NCBI GenBank assembly: GCA_000092065.1
Contig: CP000598.1
DNA length: 64,000 nucleotides
Source: Ostreococcus lucimarinus
Lineage: Eukaryota
Reading direction: 5' to 3' (one strand)
The notes below the pieces were generated by a model. It ran no database searches. It saw only the letters and a list, made by a program, of their open reading frames with translations, and was not told the DNA's origin. This document shows, one piece after another, positions 14,259 through 55,688 of the stretch. The position numbers and the translations under genes are program-made. Position 1 is the stretch's first letter; each line of letters starts with the position of its first letter.

Positions 14259-14300
14259 ATGTCGATTCGCCAACGCTGTTTCGCTGAACGCAATACTCAA

Positions 14301-16436: not shown

Positions 16437-16439
16437 CGT

Positions 16440-21023: not shown

Positions 21024-21198
21024 TGCGAGCTATACCTTATATGATGGTGAGCAATCGGGCCTAGTGCGTCGATAAGTGATGATAATTACAATCAGTTGTG
21101 GTTAGTTCATTAATGAGTGTTAACTCGTCAATTAGTCCCGCTAGGTTACTAGGGGAAGCTACTATATTTCATATTTTACTCTTCAGATTTCTAACACA
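21024..21198 (-). repeat. copia 3' LTR
   Basis: Identical to 26579-26753 and preceded by the PPT. Confidence 0.8.
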
Positions 21199-21213
21199 CC
21201 TCCTTAGCTTTCT

Positions 21214-25212: not shown

Positions 25213-25215
25213 TCA

Positions 25216-26391: not shown

Positions 26392-26578
26392 CTTGCTTTG
26401 GTTAAGCGTTTTAAGGCGTTACTAAATTTAGAATCTTCTAAAAATAGAACGATTCGCTCTAAAAATAGAACGACTCTTTACAAACCGATCGAGGCGCAAA
26501 AGGCACTCTTCCGATTGACACTAATCGTAGGTCCACGCTAGCGTGCTGCACGTCGTCGCAGATGGCAGAATCGTACGA

Positions 26579-26753
26579 TGCGAGCTATACCTTATATGAT
26601 GGTGAGCAATCGGGCCTAGTGCGTCGATAAGTGATGATAATTACAATCAGTTGTGGTTAGTTCATTAATGAGTGTTAACTCGTCAATTAGTCCCGCTAGG
26701 TTACTAGGGGAAGCTACTATATTTCATATTTTACTCTTCAGATTTCTAACACA
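26579..26753 (-). repeat. copia 5' LTR
   Basis: Identical to 21024-21198. Confidence 0.8.
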
Positions 26754-28654
26754 CTTCGACTATGTATCACGAATGCGGATCCTCGCACTTGAGAAACCTC
26801 GGATTTATACGTCGCGATGGGTGTCGTGCGTGAGAAACCTTGGGTTTATAAGTCGCAATAGATGTCGTGCGTGCTTGGCTTGTCTGATGCTGATTCATAC
26901 GCGCTAAGTCTATATGTAGGTCTAGTTCGTGTACAAGTAGTGTAGACATGCACGTCAGCAACAAAAAACTCCGCCGGTGCATTTGGCTTGAAAAAGTTCG
27001 AGCTCTATCACTAGATGCGACCTACCAATGATCACACCGTTCGTGTTCCTCTTAACCAACTTTGCTTGTGTGCTTCTCTGTCGGATATCTTGTCATTCTT
27101 GACCTTCTCGAAATTTGTCTCTATCCAATCCATGATCCACTTGCCCCACTCATGAATATGGCGACTCCAGACGTCGACTTCATTCCAAGATCTGATTTTC
27201 CAGGAAATAATTCTTCATTTACAAAGTTCGAATCACTAAACGCTGCCGGACATATACTCGAGTCCTTCCTGAAGTACAGTTCTACGACTTAAAATGTTCG
27301 TCAAATCAAGATTCGATACAAAGTGCGCAAATTCCGAATCGTCCAGAAGGCTGCGGCATAGATTTGTTTTTGCAACGTAAAAACGGCTTGAAAACTATCG
27401 GCCTTGAGAAATCTCAAGACAATGTCAATGTTGGCACACGTCAGCTCATCGGCGCTCACACACTCACTAAGCGCGATCATGCCGAGTCTGCAAACAGTGT
27501 TGTAAGTCTGGCTATCATATTTGTATTTGCTTACTGCGCTCTTTTCATTTTAAAGAGGATGCCGAAGCGGATTTAAAGTTGGCCACGTTGAGAGGCTCAG
27601 ATAAGAGCATGTATTATTAGCTTGTATTCTTGATAAGCCTTTCCGGATAGAATGCGTGACGAGTTACGACTCAACTGCAACTGTGAACATCAATCGAAAC
27701 TGAAAGTTCAGAAGTTGTGACCGCTCGCTGGAAAATTGACCCACTACCGACGGTGACAGTCGCCGTGGCGAATTGTTTTTGTTTGGGCACTGCGCAGACG
27801 AAATCGAGAATTTTGGCGATATGAGGTGAGGACTATGCGAGGCGGGGGGAGAGTCTACGCGGTCTTGGTCCCAGTGGCATTCCTTCCTAGCCGACTGCGT
27901 CTCTGTAGGAACGTTTCGCCGTCGATGAGCTACACCAGAAGTATCGCGACGGCATATCGCGACGATGGGCGCCGCCGCCTAGGCGCGGGAAGTCTGATCC
28001 CGGCTACGAAAGATATAAGACCCACCCCGCGTTACGAAAGTCTTGATACAGTGTATGGTTTTTCATAGTGCAGTGCAACGAACGTGTCGAATACGATGAC
28101 GCGTGAAATGAAGGGGAAACGACGACCAAACGGGGTTCCACAGCGCGCAGGGTTCGTGCGTATTTCGCGCGCGGCGTCTTGTCGGCGTGCTCATCCATCG
28201 CGACGAAAGTGGGCGAGGCCGATGCACGTTGGCTTTTACACGTTCTGCGCGTCGTTCGCCGATCCGGCGTGGGGACGCGGTTCTCGCGCGCGCGTCGCGC
28301 GTCGCGCGCGCCGCGAAGGCGACGACGACGACGATCGCGCTTCCGAGACCCTCGTCGCGCGTCTCCGCGCGCGTCGCGTCGCGTGCGGTTCGCGCGACGC
28401 GTCGCGCGCGCGCGACTGGGCTCGTTCGGTGCGTTGCGCCGCCGCGGTGCGGTGGCGGCGCGCGCGACCGCGCGGGCGCGCGTTTCAGTGATGGCGTGCG
28501 TGATTGCATAACGCCCGTTTCAGTGATGGCGTGTGTGTCTGTTGCGATGATGGTATATATGGCTCGTTTCGAAGTAAAATATGTATATTAGATCGTATTA
28601 TGATACATTTAAGTCTATCTGTGTGATCCATGGATACATTTTCGTTCGATTGAT

Positions 28655-33366: not shown

Positions 33367-33838
33367 CGTCCGCGGTCGTTCGCGTCGACATAGTTCAAGT
33401 GGTACCCTTGGACGACGGGCCCACCCGTGCGCACCCACGGGTGGGTGAAGTGCGTTTCCGTGGCGCGCCGTCGCCGTTCGGTCCTTCGCGGGCGACCGTA
33501 GCGCAACCGGGCGATCTCCGTGCGGGCGGCGCGACGCGACGCCGGTGCACGCATCGCAAGGGGCACACGCCGGGGGCACGGCGCCATTCGCGGCGAACGG
33601 TACGCCACCACACACGTTCGCAGCGGCGGACGGCATGCGTGGGCGGGTTGGAGGCAACGTTGTATTGAAAATTGCGTACAGCACTGTTGGGCAGACCGGC
33701 TCGTTGAAGCAGCATACGGATCTACGAGCGAAAGCATTTTCTCCGTCGAATATCATAGGGAAACAGCATGATAGATCAGTTGCACGGTCGAATCACAGTG
33801 CTCGAGCATCCTTCAGTTATCATACGTTGAAGGTGAAA

Positions 33839-36800
33839 ATGATTTTAACACTCGTATCCATCGCTATATCCATGGGAAATACACTTGCGAGTGGTAGCAT
33901 AGCGCTCACCGACGCAACGTTTTCTACTGCGATCGCTAGTTGCCTCGAGGAGGCAGCGTCGGATGGCCTGTGTACTTCTTACGGCTTTGCAAGTGGGTTC
34001 GGAGCGATGCCTGATTGGGACACGGGCAATGTCACGAACATGGGTAGTGCATTTTCGTCTAAATACTACTTCAATGCATCCATCGGGAACTGGAACACGT
34101 CGCGAGTGACGTATATGGGTTCCATGTTTCAGTCTGCGTATTCGTTTAATCAGGACATCGGGAACTGGAACACGTCGCAGGTGACGAACATGTATTCCAT
34201 GTTTCAGTCTGCGAATTCGTTTAATCAGGACATCGGGAACTGGAACACGGCGCGAGTGACGTATATGGGTTCCATGTTTCAGTATGCATCTTCGTTTGAT
34301 CAGGACATCGGGGGCTGGAACACGTCGCAGGTGACGAACATGTATTCCATGTTTCAGTATGCGTCTTCGTTTGATCAGGATATCGGGAACTGGAACACGT
34401 CGCGAGTGACGTATATGTATTCCATGTTTCAGGGCGCATCTGCGTTTGATCAGGACATCGGGGGCTGGAACACGTCGCGAGTGACCAATATGGGTTCCAT
34501 GTTTCAGTATGCATCTTCGTTTGATCAGGACATCACAAACTGGAACACGTCGCGAGTGACCAATATGGGTTCCATGTTTCAGTATGCATCTTCGTTTGAT
34601 CAGGACATCACAAACTGGAACACGGCGCGAGTAACGTACATGACCAACATTTTCCAAAACGCGACGGCGTTTCAGGCGAAATATACATGTTCGACCGTTC
34701 AATCTGGACCCATCGCATCGTGTTCGCAGTGCGTTGCAAACTGTGCCGCTTGTAGTAACACTGCGTCGGGTGTTTGTAGTGTTTGCATGACTGGGTACAC
34801 ATTAGACGGAGGAATGTGTGCGGCACCCGCTGCGGCGCTCACCGACGCAACGTTTTCTACTGCGATCGCTAGTTGCCTCGAGGAGGCAGCGTCGGATGGC
34901 CTGTGTACTTCTTACGGCTTTGCAAGTGGGTTCGGAGCGATGCCTGATTGGGACACGGGCAATGTCACGAACATGGGTAGTGCATTTTCGTCTAAATACT
35001 ACTTCAATGCATCCATCGGGAACTGGAACACGTCGCGAGTGACGTATATGGGTTCCATGTTTCAGTCTGCGTATTCGTTTAATCAGGACATCGGGAACTG
35101 GAACACGTCGCAGGTGACGAACATGTATTCCATGTTTCAGTCTGCGAATTCGTTTAATCAGGACATCGGGAACTGGAACACGGCGCGAGTGACGTATATG
35201 GGTTCCATGTTTCAGTATGCATCTTCGTTTGATCAGGACATCGGGGGCTGGAACACGTCGCAGGTGACGAACATGTATTCCATGTTTCAGTATGCGTCTT
35301 CGTTTGATCAGGATATCGGGAACTGGAACACGTCGCGAGTGACGTATATGTATTCCATGTTTCAGGGCGCATCTGCGTTTGATCAGGACATCGGGGGCTG
35401 GAACACGTCGCGAGTGACCAATATGGGTTCCATGTTTCAGTATGCATCTTCGTTTGATCAGGACATCACAAACTGGAACACGTCGCGAGTGACCAATATG
35501 GGTTCCATGTTTCAGTATGCATCTTCGTTTGATCAGGACATCACAAACTGGAACACGGCGCGAGTAACGTACATGACCAACATTTTCCAAAACGCGACGG
35601 CGTTTCAGGCGAAATATACATGTTCGACCGTTCAATCTGGACCCATCGCATCGTGTCGATCGGGGTCACCATTTCAGAATTCGACCGAGTTGAAGCTTGC
35701 GGTCGACAGCTGTTTACTCGCGGATCCAACAGGAAATTGTGATTGCAGAAGTTCTCTGGTCGACTGCCGGGCGGCGAGCGGCGATTCAATATCGAAATGG
35801 GATACACGCTTCGTAACGAATATGAGCTCCTTGTTTGCAGGATCAGATCAATTTAACGCAGATTTAGGTGCTTGGAACACAAGTGCCGTTACTTCGATGT
35901 CGCACATGTTTCATGGAGCCGCTGCGTTCAACAAAGACATTAGTGGTACGTATAATGCGAATATCTTCGCGTGGGACGTGAGCGGCGTGACGGACATGAC
36001 TCGAATGTTCGAAGGCGCTAATAGTTTCGCTCAGGACATCAGCTCGTGGAACGTGGTGAACGTCGCGAGCATGGACAGTATGTTTTCGGGCGCAAACGCG
36101 TTCAACGCGCCCATCGGCAGTTGGAACACAGACGGCGTGACAAACATGTTTCAGATGTTCCACTCAGCACATGTGTTCGATCAACCAATCGGAAGCTGGA
36201 ACACGGAACGGGTGACGAGCATGCAGTGCATGTTCATGTATGCGCGTGAATTCAATCAGGATATCAGCTCCTGGAACACGGTCAACGTGGTAAATATGTG
36301 GGATATGTTTAATAGTGCGGATGCGTTCAACCAGAACATTGGGTTATGGAACACAGAGGAGGTGACGGATATGAGATACATGTTCTATAACGCGGGTGCG
36401 TTCAACCAGCCCATAGGGTCGTGGAACACCGCCAATGTCACGACCATGCGATCTATGTTTCAGGGCGCATCTGCGTTTAATCAGGACATCGGAAACTGGA
36501 ACACGACTTCTGTCACGGACATGTACAGCATGTTTGGTAGCGCGACGGCGTTCAATCAGAACATCACGGGATGGCACACGCCGAATACTGGTATTACTTG
36601 CGATTCATCGCAAACGGCGTGTGGTGATACAGGGTGTTTTGACATCGGTAATTGTGCTGCTGCGATGTTTTCCGGTGCGACAGCTTGGTTAGCGAGGTAT
36701 GCTCGCATGGATGGGAATGCGTCGAGCACCGATGGACCTCCGTCTCAGTGGGTCGGCCCGACACCATTTTTGAGTCGAGACGCTTTAGTCGCGGCGGTTG

Positions 36801-39800
36801 ATAATTGCTTGACCGAGGACGAGACGGGAAGTTGCGATTGCTCTGATTACGACGTCGATTGTGGCGCCGCCGTAAAGCTGCCGATCACGGAATGGGACGT
36901 GAGCCTCATCGTGGATATGAACGAGCTATTTAAGGCTCGAGCAGCTTTCAATCAACCGGTTGGTGTTTGGAACACTAGTAGCGTGACGGATATGAGCGGC
37001 ATGTTTGAGAGCGCATCCGCGTTTAACCAGCCCGTTGGTAACTGGAACACGGGTAGTGTGACGGACATGAGCGGCATGTTTGAGAGCGCATCCGCGTTTA
37101 ACCAGCCCATTGGTAACTGGGCCACGGGCAGTGTGGCGGATATGAGCGGGATGTTTGAGAGCGCATCTGAATTCAATCAGAATATTAGTAGCTGGTCAGT
37201 CGCTTCTGTGGTGAACATGCAATCCATGTTTTCCTCTGCTTCATCCTTCGAGCAAGACATCACTGGATGGATTTCAACTAGTGTCACGACGGACATGGCG
37301 ACGGACATGTTTCTCTCTGCGACAGCTTGGCTGCGAACATTCGCACGCACAGATGGCGAAGACACCCCCCATGGTCCACCATCCGATTGGGGCGAACCGT
37401 GTGGCAATGGGTGGTACGATGAGAAAGTTCAGGGGGAGAAGGAGGATGACTTTTGTGAGCCAAAAGTGAACGGGATTGAAGTGAAAGGATGTGCAGATGA
37501 CTGCAAAGTAAAAACGAACTGGAAGTGCGACAATGTCGACTTGCTACGCCCCGGTGATGACTTCGACAGCTACAATTGTACGTGCGACAACCCGGTGGGC
37601 ACGTATGCATCACCTAATCTTGATAATGATTGTGCTCGCACAGATTGCGTTTATGTCGAACGGTGTCTCGCTAACGGCCTAGGCTGTGCGCCCGGTGCCG
37701 GTGGAATGTGGGACGTGGGACGTGGAACGTGGGACGCGGTGAACGCATGCGGCAAGTGCTTGAGGGCCGCTGATATTGCCGAGCTCCCACTCAACGAACG
37801 AAGTAGGCACAACAAGGCTGGCTATTACAAGACTGGGCAGACGTGCACGGCTTGTCCTGCGACATCAGCCGCGGGACTTTTCGCTGCGGCTGCGGTTGTC
37901 GTCGTCCTCGCTTTTTGTGGTTTCAAAGCCTCTCAATTGATGGGCGCTCAAGCGACGAACAATTTGAAGAAAATTGTCGAGTCGCTGCAGTTCTTCTCTC
38001 TTTCGCTCAGTATGAGTATCAAGTGGCCTGGGCCCGTACTCAATCTCGGTAAATATTTGGAAGCTTTCACGTTCAGCATTGAGTTTCTACGACCCCAATG
38101 CGTCGCTGCGGGGCTGGATTGGCTCAATATATTTTTGTCCTCGGTGTTTGTCGTTCCCGCTCTCATCTTCATAATCATCGTCGTGAACAATAGACGGGCG
38201 AGGCACCGTTACAAAACAACGGTGCGCGCGATCGACAGTGAACGACACGAGGATGGCGAAACGGTCTACTGGATCGAGAAACCAGGGTTCCTGTGGGGTA
38301 CGCGGAGAGCTTACGAGTCCAAGGGCGGAGATAAGATTGTTCGTGAGTTGCAGCGCCAGTATCGGTTTCGAGCCGCGCTTCGATCTTTCGGCGTACTGTC
38401 ACTGACCATCCTGTACCTTCCCATCGTGCGTATGTGCCTTCAGTCATACGATTGCATAAAGATAGACGGCGTGGATGGGCTTCGATTGGAGCATGACATA
38501 GATATCCTCTGTGAAAGCGAAGGGCACGTGATCATCCAGGCCGCCGCCGCGGTGATGTTGGCCATTGTCGGTATCGGCATGCCAATTTACGTCGTTATGC
38601 AAGTTCGTAAGATCCGTTTGAGTGGTAAACTGGATGATCCGCAGACTATCGACTCGTATGGTCCGTTCTACGACGTCTACCGGCGCGAGGAGCTCACACA
38701 TGATCACAAATTGGAGATTGCGAGGATTCGACAAACCGCGGTCGAGTCGTCCTCATTTCGACGAGGCGAAGGCACGAGCGACGAACGTCCTTTCGATGCA
38801 GCAACTGATGATATTGCAGAAGAAATCGCAAATGAAGTCAGGGTCGACACGGAAGAAGATTCAAGCGACGTCGATCGTGTTGACGTCGAGGACGATAGTG
38901 GCACTCCACCACCTCAGAAAGTTTCATCCGGTCTCGGTAAGCTCGCTCGGGCGTTAACGATGACGAAGTCTGCTTTAGGCCGGACGACGTCAGCGAAAGC
39001 GCGCGAACGGGCACATCGAATGCACTGGAAGGACAGGTTCGCGCTTCACTACCTGGCCGTTGAACTAGTGCAGAAGAGTTGCGTCATTTTGACGACGTCT
39101 CCGATAGTGGCCGAAACCGCGGTGAGCGGTTGGGCTCTGGTTGTCGTACACTGGTTTACCGGCGCCTTCGTCTACGTGTGTCAGCCTTGGCGCATCATGA
39201 CGCTCGGCTTCGGCAAATACAAGGTGCGAAATTGCTTGAACAAAGTCGAGTCCTTGGCTGGATTTTTGCAGGGCGTGGGACCGTTCTTGGCAATGATCTT
39301 CCCTGTTCAGAGAAACGAGTTCGGTGAGGTGAAGCAAACTGTGACACTCTCAGCCATAACTGTCCTGCTGACCATCATAATCACCGGGCTGCTTTCTATT
39401 CGTATCATTGTTTTCGTCGGCGAACGCGTCGCCGTCAAACGAAAGAAGATGGATATCGACAAGGATCCCGAGAAATGCATGCAAAATGTTCACAAACAAC
39501 TGGTCAAGCTCGCAACCAACAGAGCGATTGTGAGCATGTTTGCTTTCAAGGCAGATTTCGACATTAAGCGCCGTAAAGCACGCGCGAGGCTGGAAGATAC
39601 TCGCCAAGCGATGTTATCGCGCATCGATATCTTGAAGTCACAACAGACCGACGAGGACCATTCCGATAAAATTACCGCGTTGTACGAAGTGGCGAATGAA
39701 ATGGCACACATCGTGAATACGATCGTACCCCAAGCACCGCCAACAGGTCCAAACGCAGAAGGGTGTATCGAATTGCTGGATGAACAACTGGCATCAATTC

Positions 39801-41368
39801 TCAAGGACGTCGACGTCCGAGCGCAGGCGAACGCGTTAGACGCTCCGAATTCTGCGGCGGTACATATCGTGATGAAGGTCCACGCGTTCGATACAATCAT
39901 ATGTCGACTTGACGAACATTTGCTCGAATTCGCGGCGGCAGAACGTGTGAGTGAGCTCGCCGAGCTGGGTCGAAGACACGCTGAATTACGACATACGCGA
40001 CGTTGTGTCGCGATAGGTTTCGGCGACGCAGAGCTTCGAGCTACTTTCGATGCGCTAAGATCGTGCATCGAGGCACTCCGCCATGCCGTTGAGAACGACG
40101 ACTTCGAAGCTGTATTCACAACTTTCAATGGTGGGAAGGAGATCATTGATTCTCACTTACGATGGTGTCGGGATCAATGTGAATTGTTCAAGAGCGCCGA
40201 GGACGAGCACCCCGATTTCCTCGAGGACGAGCCTCCACTGACGACCGAGTTTTTCAAGGCGACAGTCAAGGTGATACAATCCCATGAAAAGCAACTGTCT
40301 AAATTTAAATCGGAATGTATTCGTAACTGGCCCCCGCTTTTCAAGAACTTTGGCCGCGTCAAGTACATACAAGGCTTTGCTGAGCAACTTCAGAATCAAC
40401 TCCATCTCGATCTCAATGAAAGCACGCCGGAGGAGGCCAAGGCTGTTTTCGATCAGGTGTTGGCCTTCACAGATGGCTTCGCGCTTTGGTGCGGCGATTT
40501 AGTGGCACAGGTCGAAGGCTCAGATGTCTTCATCTTGTTTGAGCCAATCGCCCGCGCGATGGTGGAAAGCTTGAAAGCCATCAGAGCAGACGCTGAGTCG
40601 CAAAGTGCACTCGCGAGGCAAGCATTGAGTACGATAGATTATGTGGTGACGCAACGGGCGTTGGCCGCAACGACGCGGTCGGGCTTGCAGACAGCACTCG
40701 CGGATGGTACGTCTGCGCTTGAAGACCAGCTCGCCGCAGAAATTGCAGACATGGACGCTGCGAAGATTTCTCGAGAGACTACTTTCGAGACCGAAAAGAT
40801 GCGCACCGAGGAAGCTTTGAATACATTAGAGCAAGAGTTGGACGGTAGGCGAGCGGTTTTAGAGGACGACATTCGATCGCAACAGGACACTATCGCGCGG
40901 CTACAAAACTTGAAACGGGAAGAGGCCGCGGCATCGAGCTCTATAAACCCGTTGAAATGGGAGCGTTTCAGTCGAAGCACTGAGCTCGCCGAAGCTGTAA
41001 GTGCACTCCGTATGAGCAAACAAAACTTGAAGAATGAAGAGCTTGCAAATGAGAAGGCCCGCGGGGATGCGCGTAAGGCGGTTCATTCGTTGGAACGGGG
41101 CCTGAAAAAGGACCTGGTCGAATGTGACGTCCGAGCAAAGAAAATCCGAGACGATGTGGCAAAGGAGCTGAAGAAACAAACTATGGATGCTCAGAGGAAG
41201 ACACCCGAAGATGCTAAAGCCCATAAGGCTAGTCTGGCTTCCAGGCGCGCGGTGTTCCAGCAACAACGCGCCGCCGCTAAACTCATCGCGAGCGAAAGTA
41301 GAGAAGCTACGCGAATTCAAGCACAGCTTGCATACTACATGCGAAATTTAAAGGCGCGCGAATCGTGA
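33839..41368 (+). CDS. Giant (about 2500 aa) type I transmembrane protein with the following layout:
- signal peptide ([19 protein letters not shown]);
- about 40 DUF285 (PF03382, 'Mycoplasma lipoprotein'-type, ~26 aa) repeats in four blocks;
- Cys-rich modules;
- a TM/multi-TM region;
- a long cytoplasmic coiled-coil domain that is shared with the gene at 51947-53832.
   Basis: The repeat unit is FQ(Y/S)[14 protein letters not shown](R/Q)VT(N/Y)M(G/Y)SMF. The hydrophobic stretch [17 protein letters not shown] is at about 37.87 kb. The first ATG in frame with a signal peptide is at 33839. Confidence 0.75.
33902..35767 (+). repeat. Perfect in-frame tandem duplication: two units of 933 bp (311 aa). 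Bases 33902-34723 are identical to 34835-35656, and each unit encodes 10 DUF285 repeats.
   Basis: Read directly. The antisense ORFs at 33845-34702 and 34802-35635 translate identically over 277 aa. Confidence 0.8.
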
Positions 41369-42020: not shown

Positions 42021-42227
42021 GTAAGAGTAATAAAAATAAACTTTTTTTTGTTTGAGTTGGGGCACCCCAACATGATAAAACCGCACATCGCGGCGAGCCG
42101 CGCGACGACGATCACTTCGGTCACATTTCCAGTCAGTGATTCTCGTCGTGTGATTCATCGTGTTTGACGTCGACGTTGATGTACCACATGTAAGATCTCT
42201 TCAGAACCAATCGTGTGAGTGAAGTGT

Positions 42228-42725
42228 TCAGGCCAAGTCGCGTAACTCATCTAGCGTAAATTGATACTTGTCGAGACTGCGCTTTGAAGGCAGCGTGCCA
42301 CGCGCTCGAGCATTCTTGAGGCACGTCTTACGCAGTATTCTTTTCGCGTGCTGCTTGTAATAATTGAGTTGTCTGTAGTTACCATCGCCGCCGTCACGCT
42401 TCGGCGTATATTGGGCTCTGCTGTAGGCTTGACTCTCGTCCACGTTCTCGTGACACGCGTGTTTCTGGCTGCGTCCAGCAGCTCGGGAGTTGAATAAGCC
42501 GTCGCGCTTCTCTCTCATGTATGCACTTTTACGTTGATGGAGCTCTCCAGCTGGAATGTCCTTTTCGAGAACTCTCACGTCCGCGTCGCCAAACGTGAAG
42601 ATTGGATGTCGTGCGTATTTATGCGAGGCAAGGCGCGCTCTGAGCGAACCTGTCGTCGATCCGATGTACGTTTTGTCACATTTCGCATTATCGCTAAACA
42701 TTTCGTACACGCACCCCGTAGGCAT
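42228..42725 (-). CDS. Standalone GIY-YIG family nuclease (homing-endonuclease-like), 165 aa, copy A.
   Basis: GCVYEMFSDNAKCDKTYIGSTTGSLRARLASHKY gives GIY-(11)-YIG, then Arg, then His. The catalytic Glu/Asn context MREKRDGLFNS is present, and there is a basic C-terminal tail. The ATG was verified. Confidence 0.7.
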   Translation of the reverse strand: MPTGCVYEMFSDNAKCDKTYIGSTTGSLRARLASHKYARHPIFTFGDADVRVLEKDIPAGELHQRKSAYMREKRDGLFNSRAAGRSQKHACHENVDESQAYSRAQYTPKRDGGDGNYRQLNYYKQHAKRILRKTCLKNARARGTLPSKRSLDKYQFTLDELRDLA

Positions 42726-43150
42726 TTGTCCTGGTTACCTATCCATCCCTAAGAAAATATTGTTGCCTCCTCCTGCGGTTTGCAGTCACATTCGAGAGAC
42801 CATAGGTACTCGTGTCGCTGCGTGGGGTGCAAGGTCCGGGGTGTAGATATCGAACCGCCTGATTTCACACCTGGACGTTCGTGATCCGACGAGACCTGAC
42901 GAAATGACGAACTTGTTTTGTCGTCCCCAAATTCGTCAGCCCGTCGTTCGGTCACACTTTGTGTGTACCAATGATGAAAATGACGAAATGTTAAAATATT
43001 TTAATGTTTATTTTTATTTTAGATCTATGACAAGCAACAGTGTAGACCTTTATGAAAACAGTTCGTCATTCGTCATTTCGTCAGGATCCAAACCATGGTC
43101 TTTTCGGTGTCTTGTTGAGTCTTCATATTGCAAATGTACGAATCACAAAA

Positions 43151-43669
43151 TTAGTATGAACACCAGACGACCGCCGGCGCGAGCTCCGTCTCCCCCGTGT
43201 ACCCATTGTTCTTCAGCCACTCGAAGCACCCGTCGCGGTCAATTTCCCAATAGACGCCCTTCTCGTCCCTACCTTGCCTCAGGTGGTCCTCTTCCATTGG
43301 GATCCTGTGGCCCTTTTCCTTCTTGAAGAAGTCCTTGAGCTTATTGCCGACCTTCGTCGCGCTATCTTGTCCACGCGCAGCCGCTGGCAACCACGTCTGG
43401 TATTCGATGAAGATGTCACTGTTGCGGATTTTATTTCCAACCCACTTCTCAGGGAATTCAACAGTGACGCAATGCTCAAACCATCGAGTGAACTTGGGCA
43501 TGCAGCCACGCTTCATTTCCGAATACGCGTCGGTCGTAGGTCTCGTGCGCTCCACATGATAACCGGTACGGAGAAGTTTATATTTATTAATTAAAGACTC
43601 GCGCGTGTTGGCGCTAAATGATTTTATTGCTGCCGAGAGACTCAAGTTTGGCCGTCGTTTGAGTCGCAT
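43151..43669 (-). CDS. Hypothetical 172-aa basic protein encoded next to the GIY-YIG gene (copy A).
   Basis: The first ATG is at 43669 (the tracked start is TTG). I recognise no family. It has motifs such as KFTRWFEHCV and GVYWEIDRDG. Confidence 0.45.
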   Translation of the reverse strand: MRLKRRPNLSLSAAIKSFSANTRESLINKYKLLRTGYHVERTRPTTDAYSEMKRGCMPKFTRWFEHCVTVEFPEKWVGNKIRNSDIFIEYQTWLPAAARGQDSATKVGNKLKDFFKKEKGHRIPMEEDHLRQGRDEKGVYWEIDRDGCFEWLKNNGYTGETELAPAVVWCSY

Positions 43670-43746
43670 CGATGGGTCGCGCCCGCCGATATAACGCCGG
43701 CGTTTCGGACACGATCTTGAAAACAAGCACTGGTTGACTTGATTGA

Positions 43747-46272
43747 TTAGGAAACCTTATCCGTGCCTTTTACGCTGAGCCCGGTCATGGACGGCTTCGT
43801 CGGCATGGTGAACGCGGTGTAGTCCGCCGCCGTGGGCACCGTGATGCTCGTGTCGTACGACATCCCGGAGCACGCCGACGCATCGGCGGGAGCAAGCATT
43901 TCGACACCACTTTCGAGTTTCAAGACGTACCGGTCGCCAGTCGATGGTTGTTTGAACGTGGTGCCATCGGGGATCAGGACATCCGGACGGCGATGGTAAC
44001 CATTGTTGTCGTCGCACTCCTCGTTGCCATACTGGTCGACCTCGGGCGCCGCGCGCGAACCAGTCATCGGATTGAAGCAAATGAACGGCGCGTCGCCCAA
44101 CCAACCGCCTTCGTAACGCACGTTGAGATTCACCCCGGAGTAGTCGGTACCGGATGGAGAGCGCAGCAACACGGCGTCCGTGGGTATCTTGCCTTGAAGC
44201 TGGAGAGGCGCATCCATGAACTTCTTTGACGCGGAGTCCGAAGGATCTTCGAGCCACGCCATGCCCTCCCAATTGCTTGAGCTCCACTCGTAGTGCACAT
44301 CCAATTTGTTGGGTTCCTCGCAAACGTCGGTAGTGGCGGTGCAACTCAAAGTGTCGAGGTTCGCAGGTGTAGCTTCGAAGAGAACCATATGAACTTCTCC
44401 CGAGTCAAAGAATGAGTTGGTTGGGTCCATTACGACTTCAGCGCCGAGGGTGCCGGAAACGTCTTCCTTCAACGAGCCGGTATCTTTGTCGAAGACGTAC
44501 TTTTTATAAGTGCTTCGAGCGTCGTTGTATCCGTTCGGCGAGCCGTAGAACTGGCTGTCGTGACTGCTCGCACTCGATAGCTTCGTCTGGTCGATACACC
44601 GCTCGCCGCACGTGAGTGCGAGGTGGCTGCTGAGCGACCCAGGGGGGACGGTTTGCGCGTCAGACACTTTGAAGTGCGTCAGGTTAAGCAAACTCGCAGA
44701 GCCTCGGCCGAAGATGCTTCCCCAGCAGCGTATGATTTGGTTGTCAATGTCAGCCATCGTGAGCGCACGCGGAGTCGTGATTGAGTTCGTGTTCAGCGAT
44801 CCACCGTTCCAAGTTCGCTTCGACGACAACACGAGTGCGTTCGCGTCGGAGTCATACCTGAACTTGACCTCAACTTCTGCAGCGTTAGTGTCATCCCAGA
44901 ACCAGCCTGTGATCGTCGCCCCTTGGTAGTCGCTTGCGCTTCGCACCGTCGCCGTGAACTTGTACAACACCCCGCGTGAGACTTTGAGCCTCTTGTTCAC
45001 GTTCAGTATCGGATCATCCCAATCGACAATTTCCTCTACTACGTTCCCGTCGGTGAACGCGGTTTGAGCGATAGTCTTCTCGGCGGTACTGAGCGCGGTG
45101 TCGGAAATGTAGTCGTAATCGGAAATGTAGAGATTGCCCGGATAGTGCAGATCAGCATTATACGTCTTGCCGTCGCTGCCTGTAGCCTGAAGATGCACGT
45201 AGCTTTGAAGGTTCACCTTCGCCCCGTTGCTGTCGTACGCGCCGTAGCGCTCACCGAAGAACGATCTGTTCTCGAGTTCATCGCAGAATGACTGCCCGTA
45301 CGCCTTCGTCTTGACGAGCGTAGCGGTAGTCACCAATTGACCCGCTTGTGTCGAACCATTATCAAAGTCGATGGTCTGGAAAGAGGCCTTCGTGATGTCG
45401 TTTTCTGCGCGCGATTTAGCACCCGCGGTGAATGAATTGCTGCCTCGTGTCACCTCTTCCCACCACGTGACCCCGGTCGCCGTGCAATCCGAATCCGCGT
45501 CGGTGGTTTCGCACTCGCGACGAACCACACCTTTGATGCGTTGGGACGCGGTCGAGCCAGTCGGCGATTGGTACGTAAAGGTAAAGTTTTTCACCAAGAT
45601 TTTGTCAGACTTGATGGCGACGTCATCGCGCTTGACGATCATTTCCGTGTCGATGTTCGGCATTTCTGGGGTATCGCTGAGGGCTACCCAGACGTTCGTC
45701 TTGAAATCACGGGTATCGCTCGCGTCGTCGATGTCTGGGCCCGTGGCGTTGACGACCCAACGGTACGTAACCTTACCCTTGATTCGGTCGCCGTCGCTGT
45801 TGTCACAGTGGAAAGGATCGATCTCAGCGATGTATGGGCCAGTGTTCAGGTTCGCCGTCCAGTTCACCGAGGCGACGTAGCAAAGAACCATGTTTGGTAT
45901 CTGGAAAATTTCGGTACTTACAGCGTCGACGAACGTCTCCGCCGGCGGCGCCGTGGCGTAGTCGGACGTCGAAGAGAACGAAGACACTTCGAGAGGCGTC
46001 ACCTCGACGAGCGAACGACCATCGATTCGAGACGAACCAGAAGACGTCGTCGAAACACCCTCTGACGGGATCATGGTGACTTTACGCGGCGTCAACGCCG
46101 CCTTGAGCGCGTTCGTCTTCGCCGCGCCCGACAGCCCGCTGACGGTGGTCGGGGTCGGGGCCGGGGCCGGGGTCGCGTCGTCATCCCTGAGCCCGATGCC
46201 GAGGCCGGTGCCAAGGGCGACCACCACGGCGGCGACACCAACGATCGCGATCGCAACGCCACGTCTCACCAT
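43747..46272 (-). CDS. Protein of about 841 aa anchored by a signal anchor or N-terminal TM segment. It has a (TPAP)n linker and a large Ser/Thr/Asp/Trp-rich ectodomain. Copy A.
   Basis: The ATG was verified. The N-terminus reads VAIAIVGVAAVVVALGTGLGIGL. I recognise no catalytic motif. Confidence 0.55.
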   Translation of the reverse strand: MVRRGVAIAIVGVAAVVVALGTGLGIGLRDDDATPAPAPTPTTVSGLSGAAKTNALKAALTPRKVTMIPSEGVSTTSSGSSRIDGRSLVEVTPLEVSSFSSTSDYATAPPAETFVDAVSTEIFQIPNMVLCYVASVNWTANLNTGPYIAEIDPFHCDNSDGDRIKGKVTYRWVVNATGPDIDDASDTRDFKTNVWVALSDTPEMPNIDTEMIVKRDDVAIKSDKILVKNFTFTYQSPTGSTASQRIKGVVRRECETTDADSDCTATGVTWWEEVTRGSNSFTAGAKSRAENDITKASFQTIDFDNGSTQAGQLVTTATLVKTKAYGQSFCDELENRSFFGERYGAYDSNGAKVNLQSYVHLQATGSDGKTYNADLHYPGNLYISDYDYISDTALSTAEKTIAQTAFTDGNVVEEIVDWDDPILNVNKRLKVSRGVLYKFTATVRSASDYQGATITGWFWDDTNAAEVEVKFRYDSDANALVLSSKRTWNGGSLNTNSITTPRALTMADIDNQIIRCWGSIFGRGSASLLNLTHFKVSDAQTVPPGSLSSHLALTCGERCIDQTKLSSASSHDSQFYGSPNGYNDARSTYKKYVFDKDTGSLKEDVSGTLGAEVVMDPTNSFFDSGEVHMVLFEATPANLDTLSCTATTDVCEEPNKLDVHYEWSSSNWEGMAWLEDPSDSASKKFMDAPLQLQGKIPTDAVLLRSPSGTDYSGVNLNVRYEGGWLGDAPFICFNPMTGSRAAPEVDQYGNEECDDNNGYHRRPDVLIPDGTTFKQPSTGDRYVLKLESGVEMLAPADASACSGMSYDTSITVPTAADYTAFTMPTKPSMTGLSVKGTDKVS

Positions 46273-46409
46273 CGTCGCGCGTTGAAATGCGGCGACGACA
46301 AGTGGCGACGGTGACGCGATCTGCCCGCACGCAATTCAATTCCTTCGGGTCACCTTATCTTTTGGAGCCCCCGGAAACGCGACTGTTTACCAATACGATG
46401 GTTCCCGGG

Positions 46410-51755: not shown

Positions 51756-51946
51756 ATCTAGGGTTTAGAAATTAGGGTTTAGACATCAAAAATCGCCGAG
51801 GTTCCATCAGAAAGTTGTCAAAAACGTGGCTTTTCTAAAACTCGATTTTTACTAGGGTTTAGCGACCTCCGGTTTTTCGGCGGAGGAATTGCGTGCGGGC
51901 AGATCTCGTCGTTGTCGCCACTCGTCGACGCGGCGATGCTCTCAAC
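51756..51946 (+). promoter_or_regulatory. Conserved upstream module (copy 4 of 4).
   Basis: It aligns with the other copies. Confidence 0.45.
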
Positions 51947-53832
51947 ATGGCAAAGGTGAAGATAATGCTAATATTGTCGATGGTGTTGATACTGCGCATG
52001 CCGAGCGCACTCGCAGGCGCACTCACACACGCACTCCTCCGTGTGGGTGGTCCACGTGTAAGGCAAGCTGTCGAAAAAGGGATGAAACAAGGCATTATGG
52101 ATTCGTTTCCAGGAGGCGTCCAGGACCTCCTCGCATACTTGCACCGCCACAGAGAGGACGAAATCAAACAGGAGTTTGGGTGCATGGCGCTCATGATCAT
52201 GTGCCGGGAAAACACTGAGAACAGACGCATCGCCGGAGAGCAGGGCGCGATCCAGGCCGTCGTGAACGCCTTGAACCGCCACAGAGAGAACAAGGAAGTG
52301 CAGAGGGACGGACACATGGCGCTCGTGATCATGTGCGAGGACAACACCGAGAACAGACGCATCGCCGGAGAGCAGGGCGCGATCCAGGCCGTCGTGGACG
52401 CCTTGAACCGCCACAGAGGGAACAGGGAAGTGCAGAGGGACGGACAACTGGCGCTCGCGATCATGTGCAAGGACAACACTGAGAACAGACGCATCGCCGG
52501 AGAGCAGGGCGCGATCCAGACCGTCGTGGACGCCTTGAACCGCCACAGAGGGAACAGGGAAGTGCAGAGGGACGGACAACTGGCGCTCGCGATCATGTGC
52601 AAGGACAACACTGAGAACAGACGCATCGCCGGAGAGCAGGGCGCGATCCAGACCGTCGTGGACGCCTTGAACCGCCACAGAGGGAACAAGGAAGTCCAGG
52701 CGAACGGGCACATGGCGCTCGCGAGCATGTGCATTAACAACACTGAGAACAGACGCATCGTAGACGCGTATGGGCAAACAGTTAGTTATTCTCCACAGCC
52801 TCCATTCGCGCGACCAGAGCGTTGAAGGACAGCGGGCGCAGTGATGATGCGCAAATAAACGCACTGTACGCGATTGCAAACGAGATGGCGCACGCTGTGA
52901 ACATGATCTCGATTCAAGGTGTCGCTGAAGGCCCGGGCGTTGAAGAACGAGTAAAACACACACAAGATTTCCTACAGCAACTTTTGTCGGACGTCGACAT
53001 CAAACTTGAGATCGAAGAAAAGCAAAACGCCGAGGCTCTGCGTGTGGTATTGCGAGTGCACGCGTATGGTCGTGCCATGAAAATTATCGAGGATCACATG
53101 CTAGAATATGCGCGCGCTGAACAAGTGGAGGAGCTGGCCGTGCTCGGACAAGAATCTGCGGCACTGTTAGAAGAACAAAACCTCCTTTCCATGGGTTTTG
53201 GCGTCAAGGAGCTGAATATGTCGATACTGGCAATCGACGCGGAGCATTTCACTGTGCACCTAGAGAAAGCTACTTCCCTGGACGAAGTCGGCAGTGCTGT
53301 GGCCATTCTCAACGCCGTCAATTCCATTGCAGTCCGTCATCTCGAGTGGAGAGATGCGAGCGTTGCAACTTTTAGCCACCTTGAAACCGAAGAGTCCATT
53401 GGTATTGAAGTCAAAATCAACAGGGACGTACTATATTCTGCTGCGATGCTTCTGAAAGATCACGAATCCCAGCTGAACCAAGAACTGGCGAGGCGCGCGC
53501 GCGAATGGAAGCTTCTGTTTAAGAATTTTGGAAAAGTGAAATTCAACCAGACGCTTGAAGAAATGGTTCAGGTGGAGCTCACCTCGCCTGAAGGCGCGGA
53601 CGCTGATTTAACACGCCGTGCTAAAAAATTTGTGGATTGGTGCGTGGAATCTTCACAGCAGCTGAGCCGAGGGGAGTTTAACCAGCGTCTTCCTGGGATT
53701 ACGGAAACGGCATATATCAGCCTAAAATCCCTCGCACAGAAGTCTGCCAGTTCGCTCGTTAAGATCGCACAAAAAACAGCTGCATCGAGGCGTAGCAAAA
53801 CAAAGACGTCAATATTCGGGTTTGCGCGCTAA
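51947..53832 (+). CDS. Armadillo-repeat protein (five or six 42-aa ARM units, three near-identical) joined to a C-terminal domain homologous to the cytoplasmic tail of the giant DUF285 protein. The two reading frames are broken near 52768-52825, either by a 50-nt intron (52768-52817, GT..AG) or by a frameshift.
   Basis: The ARM units read ENRRIAGEQGAIQAVVDALNRHRGNREVQRDGQLALAIMCKDNT. The downstream ORF has NALYAIANEMAHAV...LRVHAYG, matching [15 protein letters not shown]...MKVHAFD in the giant protein. Confidence 0.45.
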
Positions 53833-54161
53833 ATCCGCCAACCGAACGCCAGAATTGTTATGTTACGCTCGATGATAACATGGTTGGGTTGGGGCAAATG
53901 CCCACAAATCAGCGTCAGGCGAAGGAAGACAGGTGCGTCTGCAAATTCCAAATTCTCGGCAGAACAAGTTCGTCGACTGGAAGAGCTCGGCCGGTTTGGA
54001 GACAAACCCGCCATATTGGAAGAGCACTTCGCTGCCTGAGGGTACAGAAGATGTAGCTAATCAGAAGCGTGCGACCGTTAAGACCTTGGGGATTCGACTC
54101 GCTTAAGATTTCGGCACCCTCGCTTAAGATTTCTCCAGAACGAATCGTGTGAGTGAAGTGG

Positions 54162-55611: not shown

Positions 55612-55688
55612 CGATGGGTCGCGCCCGCCGATATAACGCCGGCGTTTCGGACACGATCTTGAAAACAAGCACTGGTTGACTTGATTGA

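What the first reader, a model, noticed from the sequence alone, without database searches (positions are those of the whole stretch)
33839..41368. Giant DUF285 (Mycoplasma-lipoprotein-type) repeat receptor-like protein in a eukaryote
The protein has about 40 repeats of the bacterial/viral DUF285 module, assembled with a signal peptide, Cys-rich modules, a TM region and a ~1200-aa cytoplasmic coiled-coil domain. That cytoplasmic domain is itself shared with an armadillo-repeat gene at 52.8-53.8 kb. This points to domain shuffling within a lineage-specific surface-protein family, and a cell-surface recognition role is plausible.
Basis: partly seen in the sequence, partly recalled or inferred. 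Interest (0 to 1): 0.6.

Follow-up and report, generated by a model that had tools for sequence, protein, structure and literature searches.

The report
DUF285-repeat, CRMP-type nine-pass algal receptor
This is a real 2,509-residue surface protein of the tiny marine green alga Ostreococcus lucimarinus, with a variable repeat-built outer domain joined to a nine-pass membrane core related to the contact-sensing CRMP receptors of malaria and Toxoplasma parasites; the repeats were already published, the CRMP link appears not to be.

Summary
The ORF is real: ATG 33839 to stop 41368, 2,509 aa. The window is chromosome 18 of Ostreococcus lucimarinus CCE9901, the small outlier chromosome.

DUF285 is strongly confirmed (PF03382, 1,098 bits). 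I count about 33-35 units of 25 residues in four blocks, not about 40. Blocks 1 and 2 are an exact 822-bp duplication. Röske et al. 2010 already list what is almost certainly this protein (XP_001422294.1) as a PARCEL/DUF285 ORF.

The C-terminal half was misread. It is not one TM plus a 1,200-aa coiled coil. It consists of:
- a Cys-rich module;
- a nine-helix membrane core homologous to apicomplexan CRMPs (hhalign E 1e-20 to TgCRMPA; E 2.8e-50 between disjoint profiles; shuffled controls E ≥ 0.02), with a disordered acidic loop;
- a roughly 640-aa all-helical cytoplasmic tail.

The domain "shared with an armadillo gene" is a truncated 3' fragment of a second family member. It abuts an ARM ORF in another frame.

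Environmental alleles keep core plus tail at 91-100% identity, while the ectodomain varies from 4 to 42 repeats.

Most likely function, by inference: a contact or ligand-sensing surface receptor. A virus-related role is only suggested by context.

Verdict: new variant of a known kind, moderate interest.

The parts
33839..41368 (+). Complete intron-less CDS, 2,509 aa plus stop. Probably O. lucimarinus XP_001422294.1, on chromosome 18 (the small outlier chromosome).
   Evidence: ORF list and translation. Neighbouring ORFs are exact matches to O. lucimarinus proteins. Röske et al. list XP_001422294.1 and a single PARCEL ORF on chr 18.
33839..33898 (+). Putative signal peptide ([20 protein letters not shown]). 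It has no lipobox cysteine.
   Evidence: Read directly from the sequence. The environmental homologue P0146 starts with the near-identical [20 protein letters not shown], and P0198, whose N-terminus differs, starts with the hydrophobic MLFATATWMLLLLTSFVDGA. Not tested with a signal-peptide predictor.
33902..34723 (+). DUF285 block 1: N-terminal Cys cap plus 9 units of 25 aa. This is copy 1 of an exact 822-bp duplication.
   Evidence: Exact-match extension with offset 933; repeat families; Pfam.
34724..34834 (+). Cys-rich spacer between the duplicated blocks ([37 protein letters not shown]).
   Evidence: Translation. The same spacer separates three block copies in environmental alleles P0146 and P0148.
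34835..35656 (+). DUF285 block 2: copy 2 of the exact 822-bp duplication, 100% identical to block 1.
   Evidence: Block copy number is 3 in P0146 and P0148, which supports real tandem duplication rather than an assembly artefact.
35657..36730 (+). DUF285 block 3: Cys cap, about 11 more divergent units, and a Cys-containing C-terminal cap. Boundaries are approximate.
   Evidence: Motif scan; Pfam stretches.
36761..37333 (+). DUF285 block 4: Cys cap plus 5-6 units. Boundaries are approximate.
   Evidence: Motif scan; TRF arrays at 36968-37195. The number of units here varies among environmental alleles.
37406..37858 (+). Cys-rich juxtamembrane module (EGF-like or ephrin-receptor-like). It ends in the CxxC..GYYK..CxxCP knot that abuts TM1.
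   Evidence: Nearly invariant Cys columns. It aligns to the Cys knot of TgCRMPA. Distant relatives carry DUF7630 or Ephrin_rec_like at this position.
37859..39448 (+). CRMP-type nine-helix membrane core, aa about 1341-1870. Helices lie at about aa 1344-1368, 1370-1390, 1428-1463, 1498-1535, 1561-1595, 1730-1752, 1762-1781, 1799-1820 and 1835-1867. Predicted topology is N-terminus outside, C-terminus inside.
   Evidence: Hydropathy. AlphaFold2 secondary structure. Homology to TgCRMPA/B. Relatives found in a 1.8-billion-protein library.
38660..38983 (+). Disordered acidic insertion in the cytoplasmic loop between helices 5 and 6. It interrupts the G.LY..Y....YWE..RK motif, which is contiguous in distant relatives and in CRMPs.
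   Evidence: pLDDT below 50 for model residues 419-526. Comparison with distant members and CRMPA.
39449..41365 (+). Cytoplasmic all-alpha tail of about 640 aa. A helical-bundle region (aa about 1877-2234) is followed by very long helices of 130, 77 and 53 residues.
52831..53832 (+). Truncated 3' fragment (tail domain only) of a second family member. It is 31% identical to aa 1938-2218 of the main protein.
   Evidence: tblastn. The intact relative P0424 (94-96% identical) carries helices 6-9 upstream, which the window lacks. Similarity starts right after the ARM ORF's stop codon.
51893..52825 (+). Armadillo-repeat ORF abutting the tail fragment, in a different reading frame. It is context rather than part of the receptor.
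   Evidence: Pfam hits to ZER1-like_2nd, ARM_LRRK2 and Arm. Frame analysis.
42191..46406 (.). 4.2-kb segment downstream of the gene. It is duplicated at 54125-58353 (98.8% identity), downstream of the tail fragment. It contains an 841-aa ORF on the minus strand with no family hit.
   Evidence: blastn self-comparison. Cluster look-up. No Pfam or PHROGs hits.

Best explanation
This is a single, intact, intron-less gene on the small outlier chromosome (chr 18) of Ostreococcus lucimarinus. It encodes a large multi-pass surface receptor with four parts.

1. A signal-peptide-like N-terminus is followed by a roughly 1,300-aa glycosylatable ectodomain. The ectodomain is built from four blocks of 25-residue DUF285/PARCEL repeats. 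Pfam groups these repeats with the LRR-like solenoids; that is from memory and was not tested here. Each block has a Cys cap, and Cys-rich spacers separate them.
2. A Cys-rich EGF/ephrin-receptor-like knot comes next.
3. A nine-helix membrane core follows. It is homologous to the conserved core of the Cysteine Repeat Modular Proteins (CRMPs) of Apicomplexa and to related protist proteins. Here it carries a disordered acidic insertion in the loop between helices 5 and 6.
4. A roughly 640-aa all-helical cytoplasmic tail ends the protein.

Shown here: the architecture, the homology, the predicted topology (N-terminus outside, C-terminus inside), and population-level variation of the ectodomain against a conserved core and tail.

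Inferred: the variable repeat ectodomain binds an external ligand or surface, such as a glycan or protein on a particle, cell or virus. Binding would be transmitted through the CRMP-type core to partners recruited by the helical tail. This is the model proposed for CRMPs, which sense host contact and license regulated exocytosis. Block duplication and deletion in the repeat arrays diversifies the binding surface.
For: Gene and repeats:
- ORF and coordinates.
- DUF285 at 1,097.7 bits; 33-35 units in four blocks and an exact 822-bp duplication.
- Organism and chromosome: with Yau et al. 2016 Table 1.

Membrane core:
- Seven strong hydrophobic segments and nine helices in the AlphaFold2 model, with TM helices at pLDDT 70-87.
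- 175 relatives at E ≤ 1e-3 in a 1.8-billion-protein library. The distant ones align over the Cys knot plus helices 1-5 and carry other adhesion-type ectodomains: FG-GAP, disintegrin, Ephrin_rec_like, DUF7630. One comes from Fabomonas tropica.

Homology to CRMPs:
- TgCRMPA/B core sequences came from the S2 Table of PMC9815656.
- hhalign gives prob 99.3%, E 1e-20 over 294 columns to TgCRMPA, and 95.2%, E 2.7e-8 to TgCRMPB.
- TgCRMPA directly hits the bridging proteins: P0353 1e-15, P0313 3e-13, P0282 1e-5.
- The helix 6-9 half gives prob 96.2%, E 2.5e-9.
- Two profiles with no shared members give prob 100%, E 2.8e-50.
- Reversed and block-shuffled controls give E ≥ 0.02.

Tail and population data:
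- Tail model pLDDT 88.3, all helical.
- Core plus tail is 91-100% identical across environmental alleles, while the ectodomain has 4-42 DUF285 units and 0-3 N-terminal blocks.

Literature:
- CRMPs are multi-pass, with the N-terminus outside and the C-terminus inside. They are required for rhoptry or mucocyst discharge and are proposed to be contact sensors (PMC9670195; PMC9815656).
- O. tauri DUF285 genes are up-regulated in virus-resistant lines (PMC5082852, S2 and S4 Tables).
Against: - There is no functional data for this protein or for any Mamiellales homologue.
- The link to CRMPs is transitive. A Mamiellales-only profile against the single TgCRMPA sequence recovers only the Cys knot (prob 60%). 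The bridging proteins were themselves retrieved by similarity to the window protein.
- Ostreococcus has no known extrusome or rhoptry-like organelle, so the CRMP exocytosis role cannot simply be transferred.
- The signal peptide and the topology are predictions from sequence features only.
- No transcript evidence was available.
Confidence: 0.6

Rival explanations
1. Variable surface coat or decoy. The protein is mainly a hypervariable, glycosylated surface antigen or adhesin. Its repeat arrays change the cell surface seen by prasinoviruses or grazers, either as the receptor itself or as a shield. The membrane core and tail serve only as an anchor and a trafficking signal, not as a signal transducer.
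For: - The gene lies on the small outlier chromosome, which is linked to virus resistance and enriched in surface-glycan genes (PMC5082852). The window carries a dTDP-glucose 4,6-dehydratase and a mannosyltransferase.
- O. tauri DUF285 genes are up-regulated in OtV5-resistant lines.
- The ectodomain varies greatly between near-identical alleles.
- It carries 28 N-glycosylation sequons.
- Related DUF285 arrays occur on giant-virus MAG contigs.
Against: - A simple anchor would not need about 1,170 aa of nine-helix core plus tail conserved at 91-100% across alleles and recognisably across eukaryotes.
- Yau et al. report that earlier work (Thomas et al.) found no difference in OtV5 adsorption between resistant and susceptible cells.
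- The log2 fold changes of the O. tauri DUF285 genes are modest (1.2-1.35), and their architecture was not checked here.
Confidence: 0.2
2. Channel or transporter. The nine-helix core, perhaps as a dimer as predicted for CRMPA/B, forms a ligand- or mechanically-gated ion pathway. The DUF285 ectodomain would be the gate sensor and the helical tail a cytoskeletal tether.
For: - The polytopic core has conserved polar or charged residues within or next to helices (invariant Q, E, R, D columns).
- CRMP cores are predicted to dimerise (PMC9815656).
Against: - No pore-lining motif or known channel family was detected by Pfam or by a PDB sequence or profile search.
- No channel activity has been reported for CRMPs in the papers read.
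Confidence: 0.08
3. Artefact or dead gene. The long ORF is an assembly or annotation fusion of a DUF285 gene with a separate membrane-protein gene. Alternatively it is a decaying, horizontally acquired bacterial or viral 'lipoprotein' gene on a rearrangement-prone chromosome.
For: - The small outlier chromosome is rearrangement-prone. The window itself contains a copia element, a 4.2-kb segmental duplication and a truncated paralogue.
- The exact 822-bp duplication could in principle be an assembly error.
- No exact full-length protein is on record.
Against: - A 7.5-kb ORF without stops is not expected by chance or in a pseudogene.
- The same architecture is found on independent metagenomic contigs, including a 100%-identical core plus tail still attached to DUF285 repeats (P0136) and full-length alleles of 2,628-2,905 aa.
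- Homologues at 38-58% identity keep DUF285 + core + tail (P0008, P0207, P0244).
- Block copy number of 3 in other alleles shows that the duplication is biological.
- The core is eukaryotic (CRMP-type), not bacterial.
Confidence: 0.03

Closest known systems
Cysteine Repeat Modular Proteins: TgCRMPA/B, Plasmodium CRMP1-4, Tetrahymena CRMP1/2, and Dictyostelium homologues such as Q86I19
   Same: - A large modular extracellular N-terminus.
- A Cys-rich EGF/ephrin-receptor-like knot directly before TM1.
- A conserved nine-helix core with the same motif order: CxxC..GY..CxxCP, TM1, WP, P(E/D)C, FDC...C loop, G.LY..Y, YWE..RK, QP(W/F)..N..E.
- Predicted topology with the N-terminus outside and the C-terminus inside.
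- Sequence and profile homology shown.
   Different: - The ectodomain is made of DUF285/PARCEL repeats rather than Kringle, MAR, TSP, lectin or EGF arrays.
- A roughly 110-aa acidic disordered insertion splits the motif in the loop between helices 5 and 6.
- The 640-aa helical tail was recognisable by sequence only in the closer (call-12) relatives: local searches with the helix 6-9 segment (aa 1715-1880), which carries only the first ~10 tail residues, picked up just one distant protein (P0277), and BLASTP of aa 1190-2509 against P0277 aligned no tail sequence.
- The host is a non-alveolate green alga with no known regulated extrusome.
- Orthology to the CRMPA or CRMPB clades, heterodimerisation and an exocytosis role are all untested.
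PARCEL/DUF285 repeat membrane proteins (Röske et al. 2010), e.g. Mycoplasma mycoides LppQ/LppC, and the Ostreococcus and Micromonas PARCEL ORFs
   Same: - Tandem 25-residue repeats matching PF03382.
[quoted passage not shown]
- Repeated blocks are separated by spacers.
- The distribution is patchy across bacteria, marine algae and viruses.
- This very protein is very probably the paper's O. lucimarinus example, XP_001422294.1.
   Different: - It is not a bacterial lipoprotein, having no lipobox.
- The repeats are only the ectodomain of a eukaryotic multi-pass receptor. Neither the CRMP nor the GPCR/'multi-pass' wording turned up in term searches of that paper (the paper was not read in full), and no paper in the library pairs 'cysteine repeat modular' with these algae.
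O. tauri DUF285 'cell surface repeat lipoprotein' genes ostta19g00660 (small outlier chromosome), ostta08g03000 and ostta08g03010 (Yau et al. 2016)
   Same: - A congeneric alga with the same DUF285 annotation.
- One copy also lies on the small outlier chromosome.
- They are reported as up-regulated in OtV5-resistant lines (log2FC 1.21-1.35).
   Different: Whether they carry the CRMP-type core and tail, or are orthologues of this gene, is unknown.
Adhesion GPCRs (functional analogy only)
   Same: A large modular adhesive ectodomain is coupled to a polytopic membrane domain and a cytoplasmic tail. The same analogy has been drawn for CRMPs (PMC9670195).
   Different: - There are nine helices, not seven.
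- No GAIN/GPS domain was detected.

Membership tests
DUF285 / PARCEL repeat proteins (Pfam PF03382) | Tandem repeats of about 25 residues scoring above the Pfam gathering threshold | tested here: met
   1,097.7 bits against a cut-off of 25, in 12 stretches. 75-nt period. 33-35 W-N/D-T...M-F units.
DUF285 / PARCEL repeat proteins (Pfam PF03382) | [quoted passage not shown] 2010) | tested here: met
   All units lie between the signal-peptide-like N-terminus and TM1 (aa 59-1140 against TM1 at about 1344). There are 28 N-x-S/T sequons and 42 Cys before TM1. The outside location is a prediction.
   The first 40 residues ([34 protein letters not shown]...) contain no cysteine before position 34 and no L-x-x-C lipobox. 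Anchoring is by a polytopic core instead.
CRMP (Cysteine Repeat Modular Protein) superfamily | Cys-rich EGF/ephrin-receptor-like module immediately preceding TM1. This is part of the 'conserved core' defined in PMC9815656. | tested here: met
   The CxxC..GYYK..CxxCP knot aligns to the TgCRMPA knot. The Cys columns are invariant. Relatives carry Ephrin_rec_like or DUF7630 at this position.
CRMP (Cysteine Repeat Modular Protein) superfamily | Conserved nine-TM core homologous in sequence to CRMPA/B | tested here: met
   - Nine helices in the AlphaFold2 model.
- hhalign E 1e-20 to CRMPA and 2.7e-8 to CRMPB for helices 1-5.
- E 2.5e-9 for helices 6-8.
- E 2.8e-50 between disjoint profiles.
- Shuffled controls E ≥ 0.02.
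- Caveat: the link is transitive through bridging protist proteins.
CRMP (Cysteine Repeat Modular Protein) superfamily | Orthology to the CRMPA or CRMPB clade, heterodimer formation, and a requirement for regulated exocytosis | not tested
   No phylogeny or multimer prediction was run, and function needs experiments. The protein is therefore filed as 'CRMP-type core', not as a CRMP orthologue.
G-protein-coupled receptors / adhesion GPCRs | Seven-helix GPCR fold, plus a GAIN/GPS domain for adhesion GPCRs | tested here: not met
   About 530 aa of that span is the polytopic core with a disordered loop. Only aa about 1871-2509 is a helical tail, and only its last 270 aa or so form very long helices.

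The most novel reading that the evidence does not exclude
DUF285-ectodomain CRMP-type receptors are the contact or virus-sensing surface receptors of Mamiellales. Block gain and loss in the ectodomain, together with rearrangements of the small outlier chromosome (such as the truncated paralogue seen here), would switch cells between prasinovirus-susceptible and resistant states. In that reading the apicomplexan CRMP 'host-contact sensor' descends from an ancient pan-eukaryotic class of nine-pass adhesion receptors with interchangeable ectodomains (DUF285, FG-GAP, disintegrin, ephrin-receptor-like).
Probability: 0.12. Interest if true: 0.8.

Novelty: new variant of a known kind. Interest (0 to 1): 0.45.

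Why it matters
Two separate literatures meet in this gene.

One is the PARCEL/DUF285 repeat work together with the Ostreococcus 'viral immunity chromosome' work. It knows these genes only as 'bacterial-type surface repeat lipoproteins'.

The other is the apicomplexan and ciliate CRMP work. It treats the nine-TM core as a parasite or alveolate contact sensor, with a few amoebal homologues.

Showing that the algal DUF285 proteins sit on a CRMP-type core has three consequences:
1. It gives a concrete architecture, and so a testable receptor hypothesis, for a gene class that is up-regulated in virus-resistant O. tauri.
2. It extends the CRMP core to green algae and to a deep-branching protist (Fabomonas). 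This points to an old eukaryotic receptor chassis with swappable ectodomains.
3. It offers a small, genetically tractable, free-living system (O. tauri) in which to study how the CRMP core signals.

On its own, without function, this is an annotation advance rather than a discovery of a new kind of system.

Tried and rejected
- Exact look-up of the 2,509-aa product found nothing on record, so the public gene model differs and could not be retrieved.
- Pfam on the core and tail segments at E ≤ 10 gave only noise. Pfam on six paralogous or orthologous family members found nothing outside DUF285.
- PDB sequence searches with the DUF285 block and with the C-terminal 1,320 aa gave no hits. A PDB profile search with A3 gave only weak ephrin-receptor Cys-rich hits, E > 2.
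- The AFDB50 Foldseek library was not available.
- The search for homologous proteins with the diverse alignment A3 was unproductive, returning 7 close fragments because of the word-index limit.
- The Mamiellales-only alignment A1 against the single TgCRMPA sequence recovered only the Cys knot (prob 60%). The CRMP link had to be established through bridging sequences and profile-profile tests.
- I tested whether the 75-nt repeat unit is palindromic, as the PARCEL name suggests. The result was 36/75 self-complementary positions against 32 ± 2.5 in shuffles, which is not significant. The long antisense ORFs at 33845-34702 and 34802-35635 are a by-product of the repeats.
- I looked for a small intron that could join the ARM ORF to the tail fragment. 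No GT..AG interval of plausible length restores the frame, and P0424 shows that the fragment is a truncation.
- PHROGs on the ORFs of the duplicated 4.2-kb segment and on neighbouring ORFs gave no hits.

Full report
**1. What is there**

The window contains one very long ORF on the + strand, 33545-41368.

Ten other ORFs of the window were looked up by exact sequence. Six are identical to annotated proteins of Ostreococcus lucimarinus CCE9901, all on a record of 149,386 bp: XP_001422291, 295, 320, 333 and 338; XP_001422288 is a shorter member of the cluster holding a seventh window ORF. Yau et al. 2016 (PMC5082852, Table 1) give the small outlier chromosome (SOC) of O. lucimarinus as chromosome 18, about 150 kb. 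The window is therefore eukaryotic and lies on the SOC. The homologous chromosome of O. tauri has been called a 'viral immunity chromosome'.

**2. The repeats**

Pfam DUF285 (PF03382) matches with 1,097.7 bits in 12 stretches, against a cut-off of 25. TRF and repeat finding show a 75-nt period.

A motif scan finds 33-35 units of 25 residues in four blocks. That is somewhat fewer than the 'about 40' reported.

Blocks 1 and 2 (33902-34723 and 34835-35656) are 100% identical over 822 bp and are separated by a 111-bp Cys-rich spacer. This is not an assembly artefact. Near-identical environmental alleles carry three copies of the same block with the same spacer (P0146, P0148).

The DUF285 content of this gene is not new. 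Röske et al. 2010 (PMC2996958) describe DUF285 as PARCEL repeats. They list one PARCEL ORF on O. lucimarinus chromosome 18. They also use O. lucimarinus XP_001422294.1 as their example of 'repeated blocks separated by spacers'.

Plus-strand genes of this record are numbered in order. XP_001422291 is at 11.6 kb and XP_001422295 at 47.1 kb. XP_001422294.1 is therefore almost certainly this gene. I could not fetch the record to prove it.

**3. The C-terminal half was misread**

Hydropathy shows seven strong hydrophobic segments between aa 1344 and 1860, not one.

An AlphaFold2 model of aa 1190-1900 was built on 22 homologues. Its mean pLDDT is 59.8, with helices at 70-87. It shows nine long helices, two small beta-hairpin loops, and a disordered acidic insertion at aa about 1608-1715.

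The charge distribution and conserved Cys-containing loops fit a topology with the N-terminus outside and the C-terminus inside. The loops after helices 3 and 5 and the tail are rich in basic residues. The loops after helices 2 and 4 carry the conserved cysteines.

The remaining 640 residues were modelled with high confidence (pLDDT 88.3). They are entirely helical: a bundle region, then helices of 130, 77 and 53 residues. So the cytoplasmic helical part is about 640 aa, not 1,200.

**4. What the membrane core is**

Pfam finds nothing outside DUF285, even at E ≤ 10 on isolated segments. The PDB holds no sequence relative.

A search of 1.84 billion representative proteins with aa 1190-1900 found 175 relatives at E ≤ 1e-3.
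- The close ones (37-97% identity) are metagenomic proteins with the same core plus tail; their origin was not determined. Some have DUF285 and some have other, Pfam-less ectodomains.
- The distant ones (23-30% identity, E 1e-16 to 1e-4) align over the Cys knot and helices 1-5. They carry FG-GAP, disintegrin, Ephrin_rec_like or DUF7630 modules in front. One is from the deep-branching protist Fabomonas tropica.

Their shared motif order reminded me of the apicomplexan Cysteine Repeat Modular Proteins (CRMPs). The order is CxxC..GYY..CxxCP, TM1, LQ..WP..PEC, TM, FDC...C loop, TM, G.LY..Y....YWE..RK, then QP(W/F).

I took the TgCRMPA and TgCRMPB core sequences from the S2 Table of Singer et al. 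2023 (PMC9815656) and tested the idea.
- A 20-sequence profile headed by the window protein aligns to TgCRMPA with probability 99.3%, E 1e-20, over 294 columns. It aligns to TgCRMPB with 95.2%, E 2.7e-8.
- For the second half of the core, a profile seeded with the window's helix 6-9 segment (its close relatives plus the distant P0277) matches a CRMPA-seeded profile with probability 96.2%, E 2.5e-9. The match includes the QPW/QPF..N..E motif.
- Two profiles with no members in common were compared: one from close relatives of the window protein, one seeded with TgCRMPA on the distant set. They match with probability 100%, E 2.8e-50, over 293 columns.
- Reversed or block-shuffled CRMPA sequences give E ≥ 0.02.

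The caveat is that the link is transitive. A profile of the close (call-12) relatives alone, against the single TgCRMPA sequence, recovers only the Cys knot. The bridging set was also originally retrieved with the window protein.

**5. The tail and the 'armadillo' link**

The ORF just upstream (51893-52825) does have armadillo-type hits.

However, the two are in different frames, and no plausible intron restores the frame.

A database relative 94-96% identical to the fragment (P0424, 530 aa) carries helices 6-9 of the same core upstream of the tail. The window has none of this. In the window, similarity begins at about 52831, immediately after the ARM ORF's stop codon at 52823-52825.

The 'shared domain' is therefore the 3' remnant of a second family member, truncated by a rearrangement. 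It is not evidence for a functional ARM-tail protein.

Both tail copies are followed by the same 4.2-kb segment, 42191-46406 and 54125-58353, at 98.8% identity.

**6. Not a fusion artefact, and population variation**

Independent contigs encode the same architecture.
- P0136 is 100% identical over the last 1,182 aa and still attached to DUF285 units.
- P0146, P0147 and P0148 (2,874-2,905 aa) and P0198 (2,628 aa) are full-length.
- P0198 has a completely different DUF285 ectodomain but a 97%-identical core plus tail.

Across these alleles and paralogues the core plus tail stays 91-100% identical. Meanwhile the ectodomain ranges from 4 to 42 DUF285 units and 0 to 3 N-terminal blocks, and one allele has a roughly 330-aa non-DUF285 insert.

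A 555-aa model on another O. lucimarinus chromosome (XP_001421295.1, on a 708,927-bp record) is 96% identical to the C-terminus. The genome therefore holds at least one more near-identical copy of the conserved half.

**7. How it most likely works**

Shown:
- a signal-peptide-like N-terminus;
- a Cys-capped, sequon-rich repeat ectodomain;
- a CRMP-type nine-helix core;
- a long helical cytoplasmic tail;
- a variable outside against a conserved inside.

Inferred, by analogy with CRMPs: CRMPs expose their N-termini outside the cell and their C-termini to the cytoplasm. They are required for rhoptry or mucocyst discharge and are proposed to sense contact (PMC9670195, PMC9815656). On that basis, the ectodomain would bind an external ligand or surface. 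The signal would pass through the core to partners of the tail.

The SOC location is one argument for a role at the virus-host interface. Another is that O. tauri DUF285 genes (ostta19g00660, ostta08g03000, ostta08g03010) are up-regulated in OtV5-resistant lines, with log2FC 1.2-1.35 (PMC5082852, S2 and S4 Tables). This is context, not evidence about this protein. The same paper also notes that adsorption did not differ between resistant and susceptible cells.

Rivals are a passive variable coat or decoy, a channel, and an artefact. They are weighed in the structured fields. The artefact reading is essentially excluded.

**8. Novelty and verdict**

The presence of DUF285 repeats in this Ostreococcus protein is already published.

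What I did not find in the literature searched is the recognition that the rest of the protein is a CRMP-type core with a Mamiellales-specific loop insertion and helical tail. No paper in the library pairs 'cysteine repeat modular' with Ostreococcus, Micromonas or Chlamydomonas.

I classify it as a new variant of a known kind. It is a CRMP-type multi-pass receptor with a PARCEL/DUF285 ectodomain, of moderate interest.

Noticed in passing
window 18000-28000 (ORF 21214-25146, minus strand): A low-GC stretch (0.44-0.49, against about 0.55 elsewhere) holds a Ty1/copia-type retrotransposon ORF. It hits RVT_2 at 3.7e-45 and the rve integrase domain.
   Followed up: partly
window 42191-46406 and 54125-58353: A 4.2-kb segmental duplication at 98.8% identity. 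Each copy lies downstream of a tail-domain sequence. Each contains an 841/843-aa ORF on the minus strand (XP_001422333 and XP_001422338) and a 165-aa ORF, with no Pfam or PHROGs hit. The tails in front of the two copies are only 31% identical, so the segment looks recently copied or mobile.
   Followed up: partly
window 51893-53832: An ARM-repeat ORF ends at 52825. It is directly abutted by a truncated 3' fragment of a second CRMP-core family member in another frame. The intact version (P0424) exists in a public sequencing-run assembly. This looks like a rearrangement scar typical of the small outlier chromosome.
   Followed up: yes
L001 (ENA ERZ28548080 contig_8318, 1.24 Mb), locus 5537-14302 and 16097-18298: A 94-97% identical copy of the gene sits in a 1.24-Mb contig, with rearranged upstream synteny. 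There the gene is split into five called ORFs, probably by long-read frameshifts. It is followed by Prim-Pol and DUF5906 (viral-type primase/helicase) genes, where the window has the 841-aa ORF.
   Followed up: partly
P0406 and P0031 (JGI contig of 93,492 bp): An environmental contig of 93,492 bp is the longest contig both for the window's exact dTDP-glucose 4,6-dehydratase and for a different family member. That member (P0406, 1,722 aa) has a 39%-identical core and a non-DUF285 ectodomain. If it is the same contig, haplotypes of the small outlier chromosome carry different receptor family members. This was not verified.
   Followed up: no
window 33845-34702 and 34802-35635, minus strand: Long antisense ORFs (285 and 277 aa) lie inside the duplicated DUF285 blocks. 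They encode a basic repeat peptide ([13 protein letters not shown]...). They are a by-product of the repeat periodicity. The 75-nt unit is not significantly palindromic (36/75 against 32 ± 2.5 in shuffles).
   Followed up: yes
L006-L025 (IMG/VR contigs, several labelled GVMAG): DUF285 arrays 27-62% identical to block 3 occur on 20 viral or giant-virus MAG contigs. This fits the reported spread of the repeat among marine algae, bacteria and large DNA viruses. Host contamination of the MAGs was not excluded.
   Followed up: no
window 4260-5450, 11600-13117 and 61263-63488: These are typical cargo genes of the small outlier chromosome. Source names are dTDP-glucose 4,6-dehydratase, alpha-1,3-mannosyltransferase and a choline/glycine-betaine transporter.
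   Followed up: no
bioRxiv 10.64898/2026.02.10.705097 (O. mediterraneus) and P0277: That preprint reports FG-GAP and integrin-alpha domain genes among the genes on the small outlier chromosome that are differentially expressed between virus-resistant and susceptible lines. A distant relative of the window's core (P0277) has FG-GAP repeats in front of the same core. This is a possible link between the family and the small outlier chromosomes of other species.
   Followed up: no
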